Source of the DNA: a virus
Reading direction: 5' to 3' (one strand)
IMG/VR virus record: IMGVR_UViG_3300044857_000472
Length of the DNA: 64,000 nucleotides
Shown here piece by piece: positions 5,372 through 63,195 of this stretch. The first letter of the stretch is position 1, and each line of letters begins with the position of its first letter. Position numbers and translations under genes: made by a program. Under the pieces are notes generated by a model, which worked only from the letters and a program-made list of their open reading frames with translations, made no database searches and was not told the origin of the DNA.

Positions 5372-7444
5372 TTACTCAGTAATAGTTACTAAGTTTACTA
5401 CATTCTTAAACATACGGTATGTAAAGAAGAACATAGCATCATTAGTACGAGCCATTGGTGGTTGGATTAAATATGATTTGAGCTGAGCTTGGTAGTTTAC
5501 TGCAAAGTGTTTCATCATGAATTTATTGTATACATCAACAAATTCAAGTTTAGTAGTTGTATAGTTAAAATGATTCATTTCAGCAAGTTTACGTTTAACA
5601 ATTGCTGCAAGGAACTTAATCTTACTAGGATAATTTTCTAATACAACTTCTATCAGCTCTGCCAACTTATCAGCATCATGTAGTTTGGTAAGATAGAAAT
5701 ATTGTAAAGCATTAAGGATTTCTGCATCATTTTTAACTTTAATAGCATTCATATAGAATTCTACTTTAGACTCATTAAAAATGAATTTCTCTTTATTCTT
5801 ATAGAGGAACATAATATCTCGTAATTTAAACTTATTACGAAGATATGTATTCATTACAAATGGATATTTTGTTTCAGAGAAAATTCTTTCTTCAAATCCT
5901 TTATTTTTAAGATTTGCAATATGGATATTTGCATCTTCTTTATATAAAAGTGAAAGATATTGATCACGGGCAGTGTACATACAGCACTTAACAATCTGTG
6001 TTAAGAACTTCTCACTGTTCCATCCAGTTGCTCCAGTTTCATCAAGATCTTTTAAGAAGCTAACAATATCCGTATCTGTTAATAATTCACCTTTATCATT
6101 AAAATAATGGGAAAGTTTATGAATTTGCTCCATTGAGTTTCTATAAAGCTCTACGGAATCACCACCATATTCAACCGATAATTCTAATTCATCAATATCA
6201 AAATAGTGAGTTCCTGGAAGACGTACTAAAGTTTTTAAATCTTCAAAAGTAGTGGACTTACTATCAGATTTTTTACGTTTAGTTTTAGTTGGAATATTTG
6301 AAGATTTAGCTTCATTGATTGTAAAACCATTTTCTTCAAGGGTTTCATTTAATTTTTCAAGAACACGATTTGCGTCCCAATCTTCTTTAGCTAAGATAAT
6401 AATATCATCTACATAAAATAAAACTTTAAAGTTATCAATATGGCGATATGAATTACGTTTAATTCTTCCAGTAAAATCTTTAAACATATACTGGATGATG
6501 ATTTTAGCAATTAAATGCTGGAAGTGAGATTCAATAGTTAGACCGGAATCTCGTCCATCTACATTCAGAAGAGATTTTACAAAGGTACGGAATTTAGCTT
6601 TCTCTAAAACTTCATCACTATAGTTAAATGTATTGAATCCAACCCATAGTGCATCAACAACTAAATCATGACTGATATTATCAAAGAATTTACTAATATC
6701 CGCATAACGAATATGGCTGTAACCTTCTTCATAGAGACGATAAGTTGTATCTTTAAATTCATCATATTCATGAATATAGTTACTGAATCGGAACTCTGAA
6801 GTATTTCCCCGCCAATCTTTTTCAGAAAGACGAATAAGACTTGTACCGAATGCCATTACATTCGGATCATAGAAAATATTTTCTGCATTAGGATTCCGGC
6901 GATAGTTCTGTACTACAATAGATCCTAATAGGATCTCCTGTACTAAGGATTTAAATACGAATTGACGTTTAGCATCAGTAGCTTTATCACTATTTTTAGG
7001 AACTGTCAAACCTAAATTGAAATCTTTTACAAGGACTTCAAGATTGTCTTTACGGTTATTAAGTTTTTCTAACTCTCTACGAATTTCTTTATCATTTTGT
7101 AGAGATACTTTATGCTTACCAAAAGAATTAATAGTTACATTATCAATAATTCCACTAGTTGAAGCAGTCAGTGCTTGATTTAGAAAAGTTCTTAAGACTT
7201 CAGTATTATTATCACTTCCTACAATGATATCTTTAATTTCACCTTTAGAATGATACGCTGTTTTAGACGCATGATAAATGGTACGCACCAAATGGTATTT
7301 GTTAATATCCATTAGCTTTAAACGATCATTAAAGTGATCATATTGAATACTTTCTCGGACATCCTTCTTCAAGATATCAATAGCCGTACCAATAGATTTT
7401 TTCAGGATTGGATAATTTTTAGTAAAGTGAATTTTCTTAGCCAT
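5372..7444 (-). CDS. Reverse transcriptase (Abi/UG/DRT-like class, long N- and C-terminal extensions)
   Basis: LTVPKN...KRQF (RT1-2), YADISKFFDNISHD (motif A), DSGLTIESHFQHLIAKI (motif B-like), LFYVDDIII (YxDD), GFTINEAKS (RT7). Confidence 0.92.
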   Translation of the reverse strand: MAKKIHFTKNYPILKKSIGTAIDILKKDVRESIQYDHFNDRLKLMDINKYHLVRTIYHASKTAYHSKGEIKDIIVGSDNNTEVLRTFLNQALTASTSGIIDNVTINSFGKHKVSLQNDKEIRRELEKLNNRKDNLEVLVKDFNLGLTVPKNSDKATDAKRQFVFKSLVQEILLGSIVVQNYRRNPNAENIFYDPNVMAFGTSLIRLSEKDWRGNTSEFRFSNYIHEYDEFKDTTYRLYEEGYSHIRYADISKFFDNISHDLVVDALWVGFNTFNYSDEVLEKAKFRTFVKSLLNVDGRDSGLTIESHFQHLIAKIIIQYMFKDFTGRIKRNSYRHIDNFKVLFYVDDIIILAKEDWDANRVLEKLNETLEENGFTINEAKSSNIPTKTKRKKSDSKSTTFEDLKTLVRLPGTHYFDIDELELSVEYGGDSVELYRNSMEQIHKLSHYFNDKGELLTDTDIVSFLKDLDETGATGWNSEKFLTQIVKCCMYTARDQYLSLLYKEDANIHIANLKNKGFEERIFSETKYPFVMNTYLRNKFKLRDIMFLYKNKEKFIFNESKVEFYMNAIKVKNDAEILNALQYFYLTKLHDADKLAELIEVVLENYPSKIKFLAAIVKRKLAEMNHFNYTTTKLEFVDVYNKFMMKHFAVNYQAQLKSYLIQPPMARTNDAMFFFTYRMFKNVVNLVTITE

Positions 7445-52813: not shown

Positions 52814-53329
52814 TCACTTAATTATGTAAATATGGTGTTTAATAGTTTTAGGTAAAGACTCGTTAATCAGATTTACGGCTTTTATAGAAGGAAGCAAATC
52901 TTTATATTTCTTATTATCTACAATTTCTCCTAGATTAGGACTAGGTACTTTAAAATCTCTAATAGGTTTATTACGCATCTTAAGATAACTTGAGCTTTCA
53001 GCATAATAACTCATAAAAGGCGACAATTGAGATTGATGTGCATAATAGCTCATTACATCTCCATCAAAATCAACTCCCATCGCGCTATTATATACATAAT
53101 CATACTTGTTTACACTTAGATCAGTGAATGGTATGTTATCTATTAGAAAATGTACTTTCTCAGTAGTGTAAGTATGCAACATAAGAGGATTTATAAATAA
53201 GCAAACTTCTCTAAAATCTCTAAGCTTATTTTCTCGTTCAATCATTATATCCATCAATCGTGATGGTAGAAAGAACATTTGTTTCTTTACAGAAGGGAAT
53301 AATTTCTTTGGAAGCTTAGCTACGATCAT
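52814..53329 (-). CDS. Array protein with RNAP beta'-like DFDGD motif
   Basis: 171 aa; LFINPLMLHTY ... MGVDFDGDVMSYY. Confidence 0.6.
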   Translation of the reverse strand: MIVAKLPKKLFPSVKKQMFFLPSRLMDIMIERENKLRDFREVCLFINPLMLHTYTTEKVHFLIDNIPFTDLSVNKYDYVYNSAMGVDFDGDVMSYYAHQSQLSPFMSYYAESSSYLKMRNKPIRDFKVPSPNLGEIVDNKKYKDLLPSIKAVNLINESLPKTIKHHIYIIK

Positions 53330-53658
53330 TACATATGTCCTTTTATTTTCAGTAAATCAACCCAATGAAATTTCATTCCAGTGAATTGTAAAAAGATTGA
53401 ATATTCCCCACTTATCCCTATATTTAACATATTGTCAAATGCAGCTGATGAAGATTTTGCTATAGGGGTCTTAAAATTTTTAGATGCTAATTGGAGCCTA
53501 ACTGTATTCACGAATATAGAGTTCATACTGAAATTAGAACGCATTAATTCATAATTACTAGTATGATTATCCTGTCTATATAGAGCAAATATATGCGCCA
53601 TATCAACTTTTTTAAATATATTGCTTTTTCGCTTAGTAAAACGTTTGTGTATTTTCAT
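53329..53658 (-). CDS. Array small protein
   Basis: 109 aa, starts MKIHKR. Confidence 0.65.
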   Translation of the reverse strand: MKIHKRFTKRKSNIFKKVDMAHIFALYRQDNHTSNYELMRSNFSMNSIFVNTVRLQLASKNFKTPIAKSSSAAFDNMLNIGISGEYSIFLQFTGMKFHWVDLLKIKGHM

Positions 53659-53908: not shown

Positions 53909-53927
53909 TTGATAATCCTCCATTATA

Positions 53928-53937
53928 ATAATATATC
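53928..53937 (-). promoter_or_regulatory. Early-type promoter motif inside the array
   Basis: GATATATTAT on minus. Confidence 0.6.
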
Positions 53938-53952
53938 AATAAAAAAAGAGTA

Positions 53953-53971
53953 GGTTCCTTTTTGAGGAACC
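53953..53971 (-). terminator. Terminator inside the array
   Basis: GGTTCCT-ttttg-AGGAACC with an A-run on plus. Confidence 0.6.
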
Positions 53972-56432: not shown

Positions 56433-56762
56433 TTATTTATACCATTCAATTAGTACCTTTTCTTCATTAGGATTCCGCATTACATTTCTAATGCTACCAT
56501 ATACGCCTTTACCATGCTTTTCTAACTCAGGTTCAGACTTTATAAAGAAATATCTAGCGGCTACAGGGAAGGTAGAAAGTAACTCTTTGATGTATTTTGG
56601 TGCTAAATTTGTATGTTCCTCATACTTGTAATCAACAATTTCTTTATATATTTTCTCATGACCTTCTGTTTCCATGTATTGACTATTATTGTCTTTTAAA
56701 TGTAGATATACCCCTATAAACTTGCCAAAAGTATTACTCTTCTTAAATTTTAAAATAACCAT
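56433..56762 (-). CDS. Array small protein
   Basis: 109 aa, starts MVILKF. Confidence 0.6.
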   Translation of the reverse strand: MVILKFKKSNTFGKFIGVYLHLKDNNSQYMETEGHEKIYKEIVDYKYEEHTNLAPKYIKELLSTFPVAARYFFIKSEPELEKHGKGVYGSIRNVMRNPNEEKVLIEWYK

Positions 56763-57001
56763 CGTTGTCTTCCCTTAGCAATCTGGATGGTGATGGTACT
56801 AGAATTATACTTTTCAGTATAAGTCGTTATTTTTGATTCAGCAATAGTAGCCCTTCGAAAATTCCTACATCTTTCTATAATAAATCGTATTCCTGAGAAA
56901 TATTCAATATTTTCTCTATAGTCTAGATAGCACCATGTATCATAATGGAGATACATACCTCTTTTATCAGCTTCCTTTGTAGTATTCTTATGTATCTTCA
57001 C
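56750..57001 (-). CDS. Array small protein (EYFSGIRF paralog 1)
   Basis: 83 aa, starts MKIHKN. Confidence 0.65.
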   Translation of the reverse strand: MKIHKNTTKEADKRGMYLHYDTWCYLDYRENIEYFSGIRFIIERCRNFRRATIAESKITTYTEKYNSSTITIQIAKGRQRWLF

Positions 57002-57240
57002 TTAATGATTTTCCATTTAGAAGAGTTAAATAGAGCCTGAATAATAATCCAGGATAGCTTAAAATTTGAAACCGTAAAAGCAATTTTGATATCGATATCT
57101 ACTATAGAGACTCCATCAAATGATTTTAAATCTCGTATAAAAAATCGGATTCCTGAGAAGTATTCGGCACTTTGACGGTCAGATGATTCATTGTAGAAAT
57201 CAAATTCTTCTACATATACGCATTTTCTAAAGATTTTCAT
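56998..57240 (-). CDS. Array small protein (EYFSGIRF paralog 2)
   Basis: 80 aa, starts MKIFRK. Confidence 0.65.
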   Translation of the reverse strand: MKIFRKCVYVEEFDFYNESSDRQSAEYFSGIRFFIRDLKSFDGVSIVDIDIKIAFTVSNFKLSWIIIQALFNSSKWKIIK

Positions 57241-57463
57241 AACTATATTCTTCTCCCTTAACTAGACATATATAGTCTCCTTCTATTTCAAAAGTATTAA
57301 ATGCTGCGTAATCTGCTTGGGTTAAGAATGCTAACTTCGGGTGTTGTATTACAGCTTCACCTGTAGGAAGATATATTCCACTAACTTTATTTACATGCAT
57401 CTGAGAAATTAGATGAGCAAATGCTGAAACCGGTTTCTTTCTTACTTCTTTTAATACCTTCAT
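57227..57463 (-). CDS. Array small protein
   Basis: 78 aa, starts MKVLKE. Confidence 0.6.
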   Translation of the reverse strand: MKVLKEVRKKPVSAFAHLISQMHVNKVSGIYLPTGEAVIQHPKLAFLTQADYAAFNTFEIEGDYICLVKGEEYSYENL

Positions 57464-62497: not shown

Positions 62498-62920
62498 CTA
62501 GTAATCTACGTAGTACTCAATAGTTTGGAGTTTTATATAATTTAAGGAAGATTGAGAATCATTAGAATTTGTATATCGTCTATTATACATATTCCATTTT
62601 TCAATAATGCTAGTTCCATTAGTTACGTACTCGTATTCATCCTCATCACATTCGTCTTCATCTAGGGAGATAGTATCTCCATCGTTATCTTTTATGAAGA
62701 CGTGGTATTTATCAAAGATAGGAGATACTTTTAGTTCGTCCATAATAGTTGAAGGTAAGTGGGCTAGGTTAAAGAACTCTGTTAACCCTACTTCTCTACT
62801 AATAGTTTCTGAATCTACTAGCTTGAGGATATCCATATTGAGCATGTATATAGCTTTACGCTCTAGGGGTGAGTTATTTTCATTAGCAAGAATGAGTTGG
62901 ATGGATTTTATGTTCACCAT
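62498..62920 (-). CDS. Array protein with acidic patch
   Basis: 140 aa, starts MVNIKS; contains LDEDECDEDEYE. Confidence 0.6.
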   Translation of the reverse strand: MVNIKSIQLILANENNSPLERKAIYMLNMDILKLVDSETISREVGLTEFFNLAHLPSTIMDELKVSPIFDKYHVFIKDNDGDTISLDEDECDEDEYEYVTNGTSIIEKWNMYNRRYTNSNDSQSSLNYIKLQTIEYYVDY

Positions 62921-63195
62921 TGATCCTTATGACAGAAGTATAAAATAGTACCATTGTTCTTACCATATTCCGCTTCGGACTTGTATAAGGTTAATGGAAT
63001 TATTTGAGAACGATTGTTAAAGATGAGTACTGGTAAACGATAACGATCTCCTATACGTATATTGGCTGCGTCTATAGCATCCATTAAAGTATTCTGGTTG
63101 AAACGTTTCTTGAACTCGTATATACTTCTAAAATTACTAATTCTTTTATTAGTACGAACCGGGATACGAGAATACTCTATCTGTTGTATTTTCAT
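62914..63195 (-). CDS. Array small protein
   Basis: 93 aa, starts MKIQQI. Confidence 0.65.
   Translation of the reverse strand: MKIQQIEYSRIPVRTNKRISNFRSIYEFKKRFNQNTLMDAIDAANIRIGDRYRLPVLIFNNRSQIIPLTLYKSEAEYGKNNGTILYFCHKDQW

What the first reader, a model, noticed from the sequence alone, without database searches (positions are those of the whole stretch)
52814..53329. 171-aa array protein carrying the RNA polymerase beta' catalytic motif DFDGD
Seen: LFINPLMLHTY, then about 28 residues, then SAMGVDFDGDVMSYY (DFDGD at 53057-53071). It also has a 14-nt near-perfect direct repeat (53001-53014 and 53040-53053) that duplicates MSYYA. Established: the beta' active site reads LHPLVCAAYNADFDGDQM in bacteria. 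Inference: a miniature or relic fragment of an RNAP catalytic barrel, possibly a decoy or mimic for RNAP-targeting defences or assembly factors, or evidence that the array captures fragments of other genes.
Basis: partly seen in the sequence, partly recalled or inferred. Interest (0 to 1): 0.65.

Follow-up and report, generated by a model that had tools for sequence, protein, structure and literature searches.

The report
Early jumbo-phage protein with RNAP-like DFDGD loop
A small early gene of a giant uracil-DNA Yersinia-type phage carries a strictly conserved copy of the magnesium-binding motif of RNA polymerase, and may be a shrunken stand-alone piece of the polymerase's catalytic barrel, but the tools here could not prove that kinship.

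Summary
ORF 52814-53329 (-) encodes 171 aa with DFDGD at 53057-53071, LFINPLMLHTY 27 residues upstream, and a 13/14-nt direct repeat that encodes MSYYA twice.

The window is a jumbo phage related to Yersinia phage phiR1-37. The ORF is the homolog of phiR1-37 g031 (36% identity), an expressed EARLY gene, and sits third behind a conserved early promoter.

Only seven homologs were found, all of the phiR1-37 type. D87, D89, G90 and D91 are invariant down to 28% identity, so the motif is functional, not chance.

Kinship with the beta' catalytic barrel is suggested but not shown.
- For: hhalign aligns only 14 columns at the motif (probability 20-31%). Protein-language-model neighbours are small viral proteins with PF00623, also for residues 1-84 alone. 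A hairpin and short helix are predicted before the loop.
- Against: Pfam, PHROG, NCBIfam and PDB searches found no RNA polymerase match. AlphaFold2 reached pLDDT 34 and 51 with no fold match. The invariant barrel-A Arg is missing. Flank similarity is not significant, and two alignments disagree.

phiR1-37 already has both canonical N-beta' genes, so this is a third DxDGD protein. Other array ORFs are not gene fragments.

Best reading, at about 50%: a diverged, truncated barrel-A-like magnesium-binding module, not a polymerase by itself.

The parts
52814..53329 (-). 171-aa ORF, homolog of Yersinia phage phiR1-37 g031. Its ATG overlaps the stop of the upstream ORF (TAATG), and an AAGGA lies 9 nt upstream.
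53057..53071 (-). DFDGD (aa 87-91). D87, D89, G90 and D91 are invariant in all 7 family members; position 88 is F or Y. Candidate Mg2+-chelating loop.
53168..53200 (-). LFINPLMLHTY (aa 44-54). P48, M50, L51 and Y54 are invariant. P48 is a possible counterpart of Rpb1-P448, but the residue at the place of the invariant Arg is I, L or Q.
53096..53158 (-). Predicted beta-hairpin (aa 58-63 and 66-72, including the invariant I66-P67) and short helix (aa 75-78) just before the Asp loop. The order of elements is the same as beta4-beta5-alpha2 of barrel A. Confidence is low.
   Evidence: pLDDT below 50 in this stretch
53000..53053 (-). Two copies of ATGAG(C/T)TATTATGC encoding MSYYA (aa 93-97 and 106-110). 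This local duplication is specific to the lineage.
53329..53658 (-). Upstream 109-aa ORF, homolog of phiR1-37 g030 (29% identity). The gene pair is conserved. No RNAP-like feature is conserved in it.
53916..53940 (-). Early (virion-RNAP type) promoter element, ATTGATATATTATTATAATGGAGGA. It differs at 2 of 25 nt from the annotated phiR1-37 promoter upstream of g029, which was verified by RNA-seq. It heads the operon that holds the ORF as its third gene.
53953..53971 (-). Terminator-like hairpin that closes the preceding unit, as in phiR1-37 between g028 and g029.

Best explanation
This is a real early gene found only in phiR1-37-type uracil-DNA jumbo phages. Its product has a helical N-terminal part (aa 1-55), then a beta-hairpin and a short helix, then an invariant D-[F/Y]-D-G-D loop. 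That loop most likely chelates Mg2+ in the way the beta'/Rpb1 catalytic loop does. The protein is most likely an extremely diverged, truncated derivative of barrel A (Rpb1 domain 2) of the largest RNA polymerase subunit. It would keep only the second beta-beta-alpha-beta half with the Asp loop. It is a third DxDGD protein beside the phage's two canonical N-beta' subunits. It cannot be a polymerase on its own, because it lacks the invariant Arg, the first two barrel strands and any barrel B. The inferred mode of action is that it presents the metal-loaded acidic loop to a partner. The partner would most plausibly be a barrel-B-type (beta-like) surface of the host or phage polymerase, or a nucleic-acid or nucleotide substrate, early in infection. 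Shown: the gene, the family, the motif conservation and the early-operon position; for the phiR1-37 homolog, early expression. Inferred: the homology to barrel A, the metal binding, and the partner.
For: The homolog set and the invariant D87, D89, G90, D91, P48 and I66-P67 come. phiR1-37 g031 is classed EARLY with 2121, 1471 and 1078 reads, and the promoter is conserved. BLASTP against phiR1-37 N-beta' g274 aligns SAMGVDFDGDVMSYYA with SSLGADYDGDVLNFIA at E 5e-4. hhalign against 34 jumbo N-beta' sequences gives E 5e-4 and probability 31%; against bacterial beta' it gives probability 20%. In motif-preserving shuffles the real sequences score above 90-97% of shuffles. The right flank anchored at the motif gives p below 0.01. 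In the protein atlas the whole protein's nearest clusters are small viral proteins with PF00623 (score 0.92, 170-186 shared features). Residues 1-84, which lack the motif, also land on PF00623 or LEF-9 clusters (0.90-0.91, 23 of 30 hits). The AF2 secondary structure before the loop, E58-63, E66-72 and H75-78, has the order of beta4-beta5-alpha2 in beta'. Both canonical N-beta' genes exist in phiR1-37, so this is an extra copy.
Against: No member of the family matches PF00623 or any other Pfam, PHROG or NCBIfam model, or any RNAP chain in the PDB, at E up to 10. hhalign aligns only 14 columns. Flank similarity outside the immediate neighbours of the motif is within the shuffle range (p 0.09-0.5). 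hhalign and MAFFT place the upstream part on different beta' segments, and BLAST finds yet a third placement, which shows how easily short matches arise. The Arg equivalent to Rpb1-R446 is absent. The AF2 models are of low confidence and show no DPBB, and fold searches give nothing above Z 4.1. D[FY]DGDVM occurs in roughly 25 distinct viral ORF types, only about a quarter of which look like RNAP. The atlas result for residues 1-84 may carry context from the whole protein.
Confidence: 0.5

Rival explanations
1. The loop is convergent. The protein has a new, largely helical alpha/beta fold unrelated to RNA polymerase. It uses a DxDGD acidic loop to bind Mg2+ or Ca2+ for some other early function, such as a small hydrolase or transferase or a structural metal site.
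For: All HMM and PDB sequence searches are negative. AF2 predicts a mostly helical protein with no barrel. Flank similarity is not significant and the alignments conflict. The same heptapeptide occurs in many unrelated viral proteins. The barrel-A Arg is missing.
Against: The atlas neighbours are PF00623 proteins both for the whole protein and for residues 1-84. The extended match G-x-D-[FY]-D-G-D-V-[ML] to the phage's own N-beta' gives E 5e-4. The predicted hairpin and helix before the loop match barrel A. The loop does not fit EF-hand rules (V at position 6, H at position 12) or HAD motif I (D where T or V is expected); this rests on sequence and general knowledge.
Confidence: 0.37
2. The protein supplies the catalytic loop to the phage's virion RNA polymerase, because the vRNAP N-beta' gene (phiR1-37 g178) stops inside DFDG.
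For: The g178 reading frame ends ...GMGGDFDGKF*, and MG.DFDG resembles AMGVDFDG of the window protein.
Against: g178 is followed by an HNH endonuclease gene. About 1.4 kb downstream lies an in-frame continuation, DEANREAERIM...LYMMTRD*, typical of beta' after the motif. So the gene is interrupted by an intron-like insertion and is not truncated. g031 carries no 'phage structural protein' note in the record, while g178 does.
Confidence: 0.03
3. It is a non-functional relic or chance ORF: a decaying captured fragment of a polymerase gene with no present role.
For: It lies in an array of small ORFs of unknown function. It has no database family and a poor structure prediction.
Against: The protein is conserved over its whole length in 7 sequences down to 28% identity with 26 invariant positions. 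Synteny with the g030 homolog is kept. The phiR1-37 homolog shows early transcription. No nucleotide or protein similarity suggests a recent capture.
Confidence: 0.03

Closest known systems
Barrel A (double-psi beta-barrel, Rpb1 domain 2, Pfam PF00623) of the largest subunit of multisubunit RNA polymerases (beta', A', Rpb1)
   Same: It has a D-[FY]-D-G-D loop followed by a hydrophobic residue and then M or L. A Gly or small residue lies two positions before the first Asp. An invariant Pro lies 39 aa upstream, against 31-37 aa in Rpb1, E. coli beta' and phiR1-37 g274. A predicted hairpin and short helix come directly before the loop.
   Different: It is 171 aa instead of more than 400. It has no Zn-binding N-terminus, switch 2, funnel or bridge. 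The Arg equivalent to Rpb1-R446 is missing. The first two barrel strands are not identifiable. It does not pass the Pfam model. It is encoded in an early small-gene array, not with the polymerase genes.
Jumbo-phage N-beta' subunits (phiR1-37 g274 and g178; Bacillus phage AR9 beta' protein P0039)
   Same: It is found in the same phage lineage and shares the motif variant DYDGDV[LM]. BLASTP over 16 aa gives E 5e-4, and hhalign gives E 5e-4.
   Different: A profile HMM of 34 N-beta' proteins does not detect g031 (E 0.71). The lengths are 171-180 aa against 410-560 aa. It is an early gene. g178 is a virion structural protein; when g274 is expressed was not checked here.
Small viral proteins (70-170 aa) in the ESM Atlas, part of whose members carry PF00623
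   Same: They are the nearest neighbours by language-model features (0.90-0.92) and have a similar size and viral origin.
   Different: No sequences could be retrieved for alignment. They may be fragments of split or intron-broken beta' genes rather than stand-alone proteins.
Single-chain two-barrel polymerases (YonO of SPbeta, the crAss-like phage virion RNAP, QDE-1-type RdRPs), as reviewed in PMC2919709
   Same: They are highly diverged phage or viral carriers of the DxDxD Mg-A loop that escape ordinary sequence searches.
   Different: Those proteins contain both barrels and all eight invariant residues. This protein has at most one (half) barrel and 4 of the 5 barrel-A invariants. No barrel-B motif was found nearby.

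Membership tests
Two-barrel RNA polymerase superfamily, barrel A (Rpb1/beta' DPBB) | DxDxD Mg-A loop (Rpb1 479-DFDGD-483, numbering as in PMC2919709) | tested here: met
   DFDGD at aa 87-91. D87, D89, G90 and D91 are invariant in 7 homologs.
Two-barrel RNA polymerase superfamily, barrel A (Rpb1/beta' DPBB) | Invariant Pro (Rpb1-P448) about 31-37 residues before the first Asp | tested here: inconclusive
   P48 is invariant and lies 39 aa upstream. hhalign in greedy mode pairs NP.ML with HPVLL/NR.P, but MAFFT places this segment elsewhere.
Two-barrel RNA polymerase superfamily, barrel A (Rpb1/beta' DPBB) | Invariant Arg (Rpb1-R446) two residues before that Pro | tested here: not met
   The position two residues before P48 is I, L or Q across the family; the definition is from PMC2919709.
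Two-barrel RNA polymerase superfamily, barrel A (Rpb1/beta' DPBB) | Double-psi beta-barrel fold | tested here: inconclusive
   AF2 gave pLDDT 34 with 4 sequences and 51 with 7 sequences, and the motif region stayed below 50. Foldseek and VIA-align gave no match above Z 4.1.
Two-barrel RNA polymerase superfamily, barrel A (Rpb1/beta' DPBB) | Partner barrel B (Rpb2 D837, K979, K987; GDK...GNKG) in the same protein or a neighbouring small gene | tested here: not met
   A motif scan of all ORFs of the window and of phiR1-37 found the canonical motif only in the 670-aa C-beta gene.
Pfam PF00623 RNA_pol_Rpb1_2 | Score above the gathering threshold (25.3 bits) | tested here: not met
   None of the 7 members gave a hit at E up to 10. 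phiR1-37 g274 passes with 27.3 bits.
Jumbo-phage N-beta' subunit family | Match to a profile of the family over the N-terminal Zn region, the LRPA and GK.G.IR motifs, the FSSR.VI strand, NRNP and DYDGD | tested here: not met
   An HMM of 34 members gives g274 E 4e-178, g178 E 2e-19 and g031 E 0.71, with only 12 residues at the motif aligned.
EF-hand or DxDxDG calcium-binding loops | Gly at loop position 6, a hydrophobic residue at position 8, Glu at position 12 | tested here: not met
   The loop reads DFDGDVMSYYAH, with V at 6, S at 8 and H at 12. The rule is from general knowledge, and there is no Pfam hit.
HAD phosphatases (motif I DxDG[TV]) | Motif I near the N-terminus of a Rossmann-like core of about 150 aa or more, with T or V after DxDG | tested here: not met
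   The motif sits at aa 87 of 171 and is followed by D-V-M. No HAD model matched.

The most novel reading that the evidence does not exclude
The family is a free-standing half or miniature barrel A. It would keep the catalytic Asp loop and work by docking onto a barrel-B surface. One possibility is an early-expressed beta' active-site mimic that poisons or sequesters the host RNA polymerase beta subunit. The other is a self-associating beta-beta-alpha-beta unit that rebuilds a double-psi barrel, a natural counterpart of the proposed homodimeric ancestor of RNA polymerase barrels.
Probability: 0.12. Interest if true: 0.85.

Novelty: new variant of a known kind. Interest (0 to 1): 0.45.

Why it matters
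phiR1-37-type and AR9-type phages transcribe their uracil-DNA genomes with their own split multisubunit polymerases. Almost none of their roughly 90 early genes has a known role. A conserved early protein that carries the polymerase's metal-binding loop is a concrete handle with testable mutants. If it derives from barrel A, it would be the smallest known carrier of that active-site element. It could show how a phage uses a polymerase fragment, whether as mimic, inhibitor, assembly factor or minimal enzyme. If it is convergent, it marks a new small metal-binding family in these phages. The case also gives a caution: the DFDGD pentapeptide, and even the heptapeptide D[FY]DGDVM, is not by itself diagnostic of an RNA polymerase.

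Tried and rejected
**Searches that found no RNAP or other significant family**
- Pfam, PHROG and NCBIfam scans of all seven members, and HMM searches of PDB sequences. The only hits were weak ones to the RsbU N-domain (E 0.14), treated as noise.
- An exhaustive phmmer search of 1.8 billion representatives and two word-seeded searches gave only 7 family members.
- IMG/VR returned only phiR1-37. The JGI metagenome scan found nothing. tblastn of divergent members against 50,697 phage records found only phiR1-37.

**Structure**
- AlphaFold2 was run twice, followed by Foldseek against the PDB and a wide VIA-align search. No usable fold came out.
- I did not fold a mixed alignment of the family plus beta' rows, because the result would be circular and the placement of the family on beta' is ambiguous.

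**Ideas dropped**
- I tested whether the upstream 109-aa ORF supplies the first barrel strands. Its 'SGEYSI' is not conserved in phiR1-37 g030, so I dropped the idea.
- I tested whether g031 replaces a broken vRNAP catalytic loop. A second exon exists, so this is rejected.
- I tested whether the array ORFs are captured fragments of larger genes. BLASTP of 56 array ORFs against 193 large ORFs gave no hit below E 0.01 other than the g031 pair, so this is rejected.

**Statistics on the flanks**
- Anchored and local profile-profile tests with column shuffles showed that only the residues directly next to the motif are significant.

- No whole genome is held for the window.

Full report
**1. The observation**

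The minus-strand ORF 52814-53329 encodes 171 aa. LFINPLMLHTY is aa 44-54. The two 14-nt copies at 53001-53014 and 53040-53053 match at 13 of 14 nt and each encodes MSYYA.

A second repeat of equal quality lies in the same 516 nt. The second MSYYA is missing in distant homologs. The repeat is therefore a minor feature of this lineage.

The ATG overlaps the stop of the upstream ORF (TAATG), and an AAGGA lies 9 nt upstream.

**2. Genomic setting**

The window holds a 1388-aa jumbo-phage RNAP beta gene (phrog_14872, E 0), an SbcC-like gene, a Nampt-like gene and a 2550-aa SLT-containing tail protein.

By tblastn the ORF matches only Yersinia phage phiR1-37 g031 (36% identity, E 6e-23). phiR1-37 is a 262-kb phage with deoxyuridine in place of thymidine and two multisubunit RNAPs (PMC7598289; PMC5312081).

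Synteny is kept:
- The upstream 109-aa ORF is the g030 homolog (29% identity, E 7e-10).
- Beyond the array lie three ORFs of 368, 202 and 154 aa. Their sizes and order match phiR1-37 g045-g047; no sequence comparison was run.
- Two genes upstream of the ORF, a terminator hairpin (53953-53971) and a 25-nt element (53916-53940) differ at only 2 nt from the annotated phiR1-37 promoter before g029. Table S2 of PMC4848604 marks that promoter as verified by RNA-seq.

So the homolog is an expressed early gene, and by the conserved early promoter and synteny the window ORF is very probably one too. It would then be transcribed by the injected virion RNAP (inference from PMC5312081).

**3. The family**

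An exhaustive phmmer search of 1.84 billion representatives found 3 clusters. Word-seeded searches with the protein and with its alignment brought the total to seven sequences of 168-180 aa. IMG/VR, a JGI metagenome scan and 50,697 phage records added nothing beyond phiR1-37.

In alignment A3 (identity to the window protein 95, 86, 39, 36, 38 and 28%) 26 positions are invariant. They include D87, D89, G90, D91 and S94, with F or Y at position 88. They also include P48, M50, L51, Y54, I66, P67, V73, P104 and P129.

**4. Is it a piece of the beta' barrel?**

*Evidence for*
- BLASTP against phiR1-37's own N-beta' (g274, P0004) aligns SAMGVDFDGDVMSYYA with SSLGADYDGDVLNFIA at E 5e-4 for the single comparison.
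- hhalign of A3 against 34 jumbo-phage N-beta' proteins gives E 5e-4 and probability 31% over 14 columns. Against 81 proteobacterial beta' segments it gives probability 20%.
- With the pentapeptide held in place, the real sequences outscore 90-97% of shuffles against beta' HMMs.
- The flank directly to the right of the motif is significant (p below 0.01).
- In the protein atlas the nearest clusters are small viral proteins. PF00623 is carried by 16% of members in the second cluster and 58% in the third, and further hits are Rpb1 domain-2 clusters (score 0.92, 170-186 shared features).
- Residues 1-84 alone, without the motif, again land on PF00623 or LEF-9 clusters (0.90-0.91, 23 of 30 hits). 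It is not known whether that part was embedded on its own.
- The better AF2 model predicts strands at 58-63 and 66-72 and a helix at 75-78 immediately before the loop. This is the order of beta4-beta5-alpha2 before DFDGD in beta' (general knowledge of the fold).

*Evidence against*
- No member reaches any Pfam, PHROG or NCBIfam model, or any RNAP chain in the PDB, at E up to 10.
- An HMM of the N-beta' family scores g031 at E 0.71.
- Local profile-profile scores of the flanks are no better than column shuffles (p 0.09-0.5).
- The alignments disagree. hhalign in greedy mode pairs KLPKK with GLPKK, NP.ML with HPVLL and VPS with VPSQD. MAFFT pairs KLP..KL[YF]PS with the LRPA motif, YTSKKIV with FSSR.VI and IPYNTF with LPYKTF. 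BLAST finds MLHTYISKKI opposite IHNYISKKI of g178. Short matches of this size clearly arise by chance.
- Of the invariant residues that define barrel A in all two-barrel polymerases (Rpb1 R446, P448 and the three Asp; PMC2919709), the Arg is absent. The position two residues before P48 is I, L or Q.
- AF2 models have mean pLDDT 34 and 51, below 50 around the motif. Foldseek and a wide VIA-align search give nothing above Z 4.1.
- A scan of IMG/VR for D[FY]DGDVM gave 41 sites in about 25 kinds of ORF. Only about a quarter show the NR.P...DFDGD signature of polymerases.

*Weighing.* I put homology to barrel A at about 50-55% and a convergent acidic metal loop at about 35-40%.

**5. What it is not**

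phiR1-37 has both canonical N-beta' genes. g274 carries DYDGD and passes PF00623 at 27.3 bits. g178 is a virion structural protein.

The g178 frame ends at ...GMGGDFDGKF*. It is followed by an HNH endonuclease gene and, about 1.4 kb downstream, by a continuation DEANREAERIM...LYMMTRD*. That gene is interrupted, not truncated, so g031 is not needed to supply its loop.

No small ORF in the window or in phiR1-37 carries the barrel-B motif. A miniature two-barrel enzyme encoded in the array is therefore unlikely.

No other array ORF is a fragment of a larger phage gene, and only one paralogous pair exists within the array. The 'array captures gene fragments' idea is not supported.

**6. Mechanism**

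*Shown:* the window ORF belongs to a conserved family, sits in an early-type operon, and has an invariant acidic loop; its phiR1-37 homolog is transcribed early.

*Inferred:* the loop binds Mg2+. The protein lacks the Arg, the first barrel strands and a barrel B, so it is not a polymerase alone. It most likely acts by presenting the metal-loaded loop to a partner or substrate. Candidates, in order of my preference:
- a beta-type surface of the host or phage polymerase, acting as a mimic, inhibitor or assembly factor;
- self-association into a full barrel;
- a small metal-dependent enzyme unrelated to transcription.

None of these was testable here.

**7. Novelty and score**

g031 and its relatives are annotated only as hypothetical proteins, and the papers I searched and read did not mention the motif. 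If the kinship holds, this is a new stand-alone variant of a known module. If not, it is a new small metal-binding family.

The evidence is moderate and the function is open. I set interest at 0.45.

Noticed in passing
L101:528-3509 (phiR1-37 record 122027-125008): The virion-RNAP N-beta' gene g178 stops inside the catalytic motif (...GMGGDFDGKF*). It is followed by the HNH endonuclease gene g179. A beta'-like continuation (DEANREAERIM...ISLYMMTRD*) lies in the frame of the tiny annotated g181. This looks like an endonuclease-bearing intron inserted exactly at DFDG|D, and the record annotates the pieces as separate genes.
   Followed up: partly
L102, L109, L117, L127, L138, L140 (IMG/VR contigs, several over 300 kb): Proteins of about 610-620 aa read ...DYDGDVM-CVEVDNH(V/I)W. 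A Cys-led block directly after the Mg-loop heptapeptide could be an intein or other insertion at a polymerase active site.
   Followed up: no
L107, L112, L141 (IMG/VR contigs of 104-316 kb): Identical small ORFs (98 aa where complete; one is cut by a locus end) carry ...ASDYDGDVMVITD on three large viral contigs. This is another small DxDGD protein of big phages, unrelated in sequence to the g031 family.
   Followed up: no
window 53916-53971 (-): A terminator hairpin plus an early-promoter element are nearly identical to the phiR1-37 g028/g029 intergenic region, although megablast finds no match for the surrounding DNA. The real start of the first gene is probably the second Met (MKIYE..., about 53908) after GGAGGA.
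   Followed up: partly
window 5372-7444 (-): A 690-aa protein has a weak PHROG hit to a reverse-transcriptase family (phrog_1423, E 1.3e-4, aa 238-387).
   Followed up: no
window 62501-62926 (-): A second array ORF (142-aa open frame) carries a DxDGD-type pentapeptide (DNDGD). It has no similarity to the g031 family (A3 HMM E 2.6).
   Followed up: partly
window 56753-57261 (-): This is the only clear paralogous pair within the 56-ORF array (28% identity, E 1e-6). The shared MKI-x-K N-termini of the array are therefore not backed by detectable full-length paralogy.
   Followed up: partly
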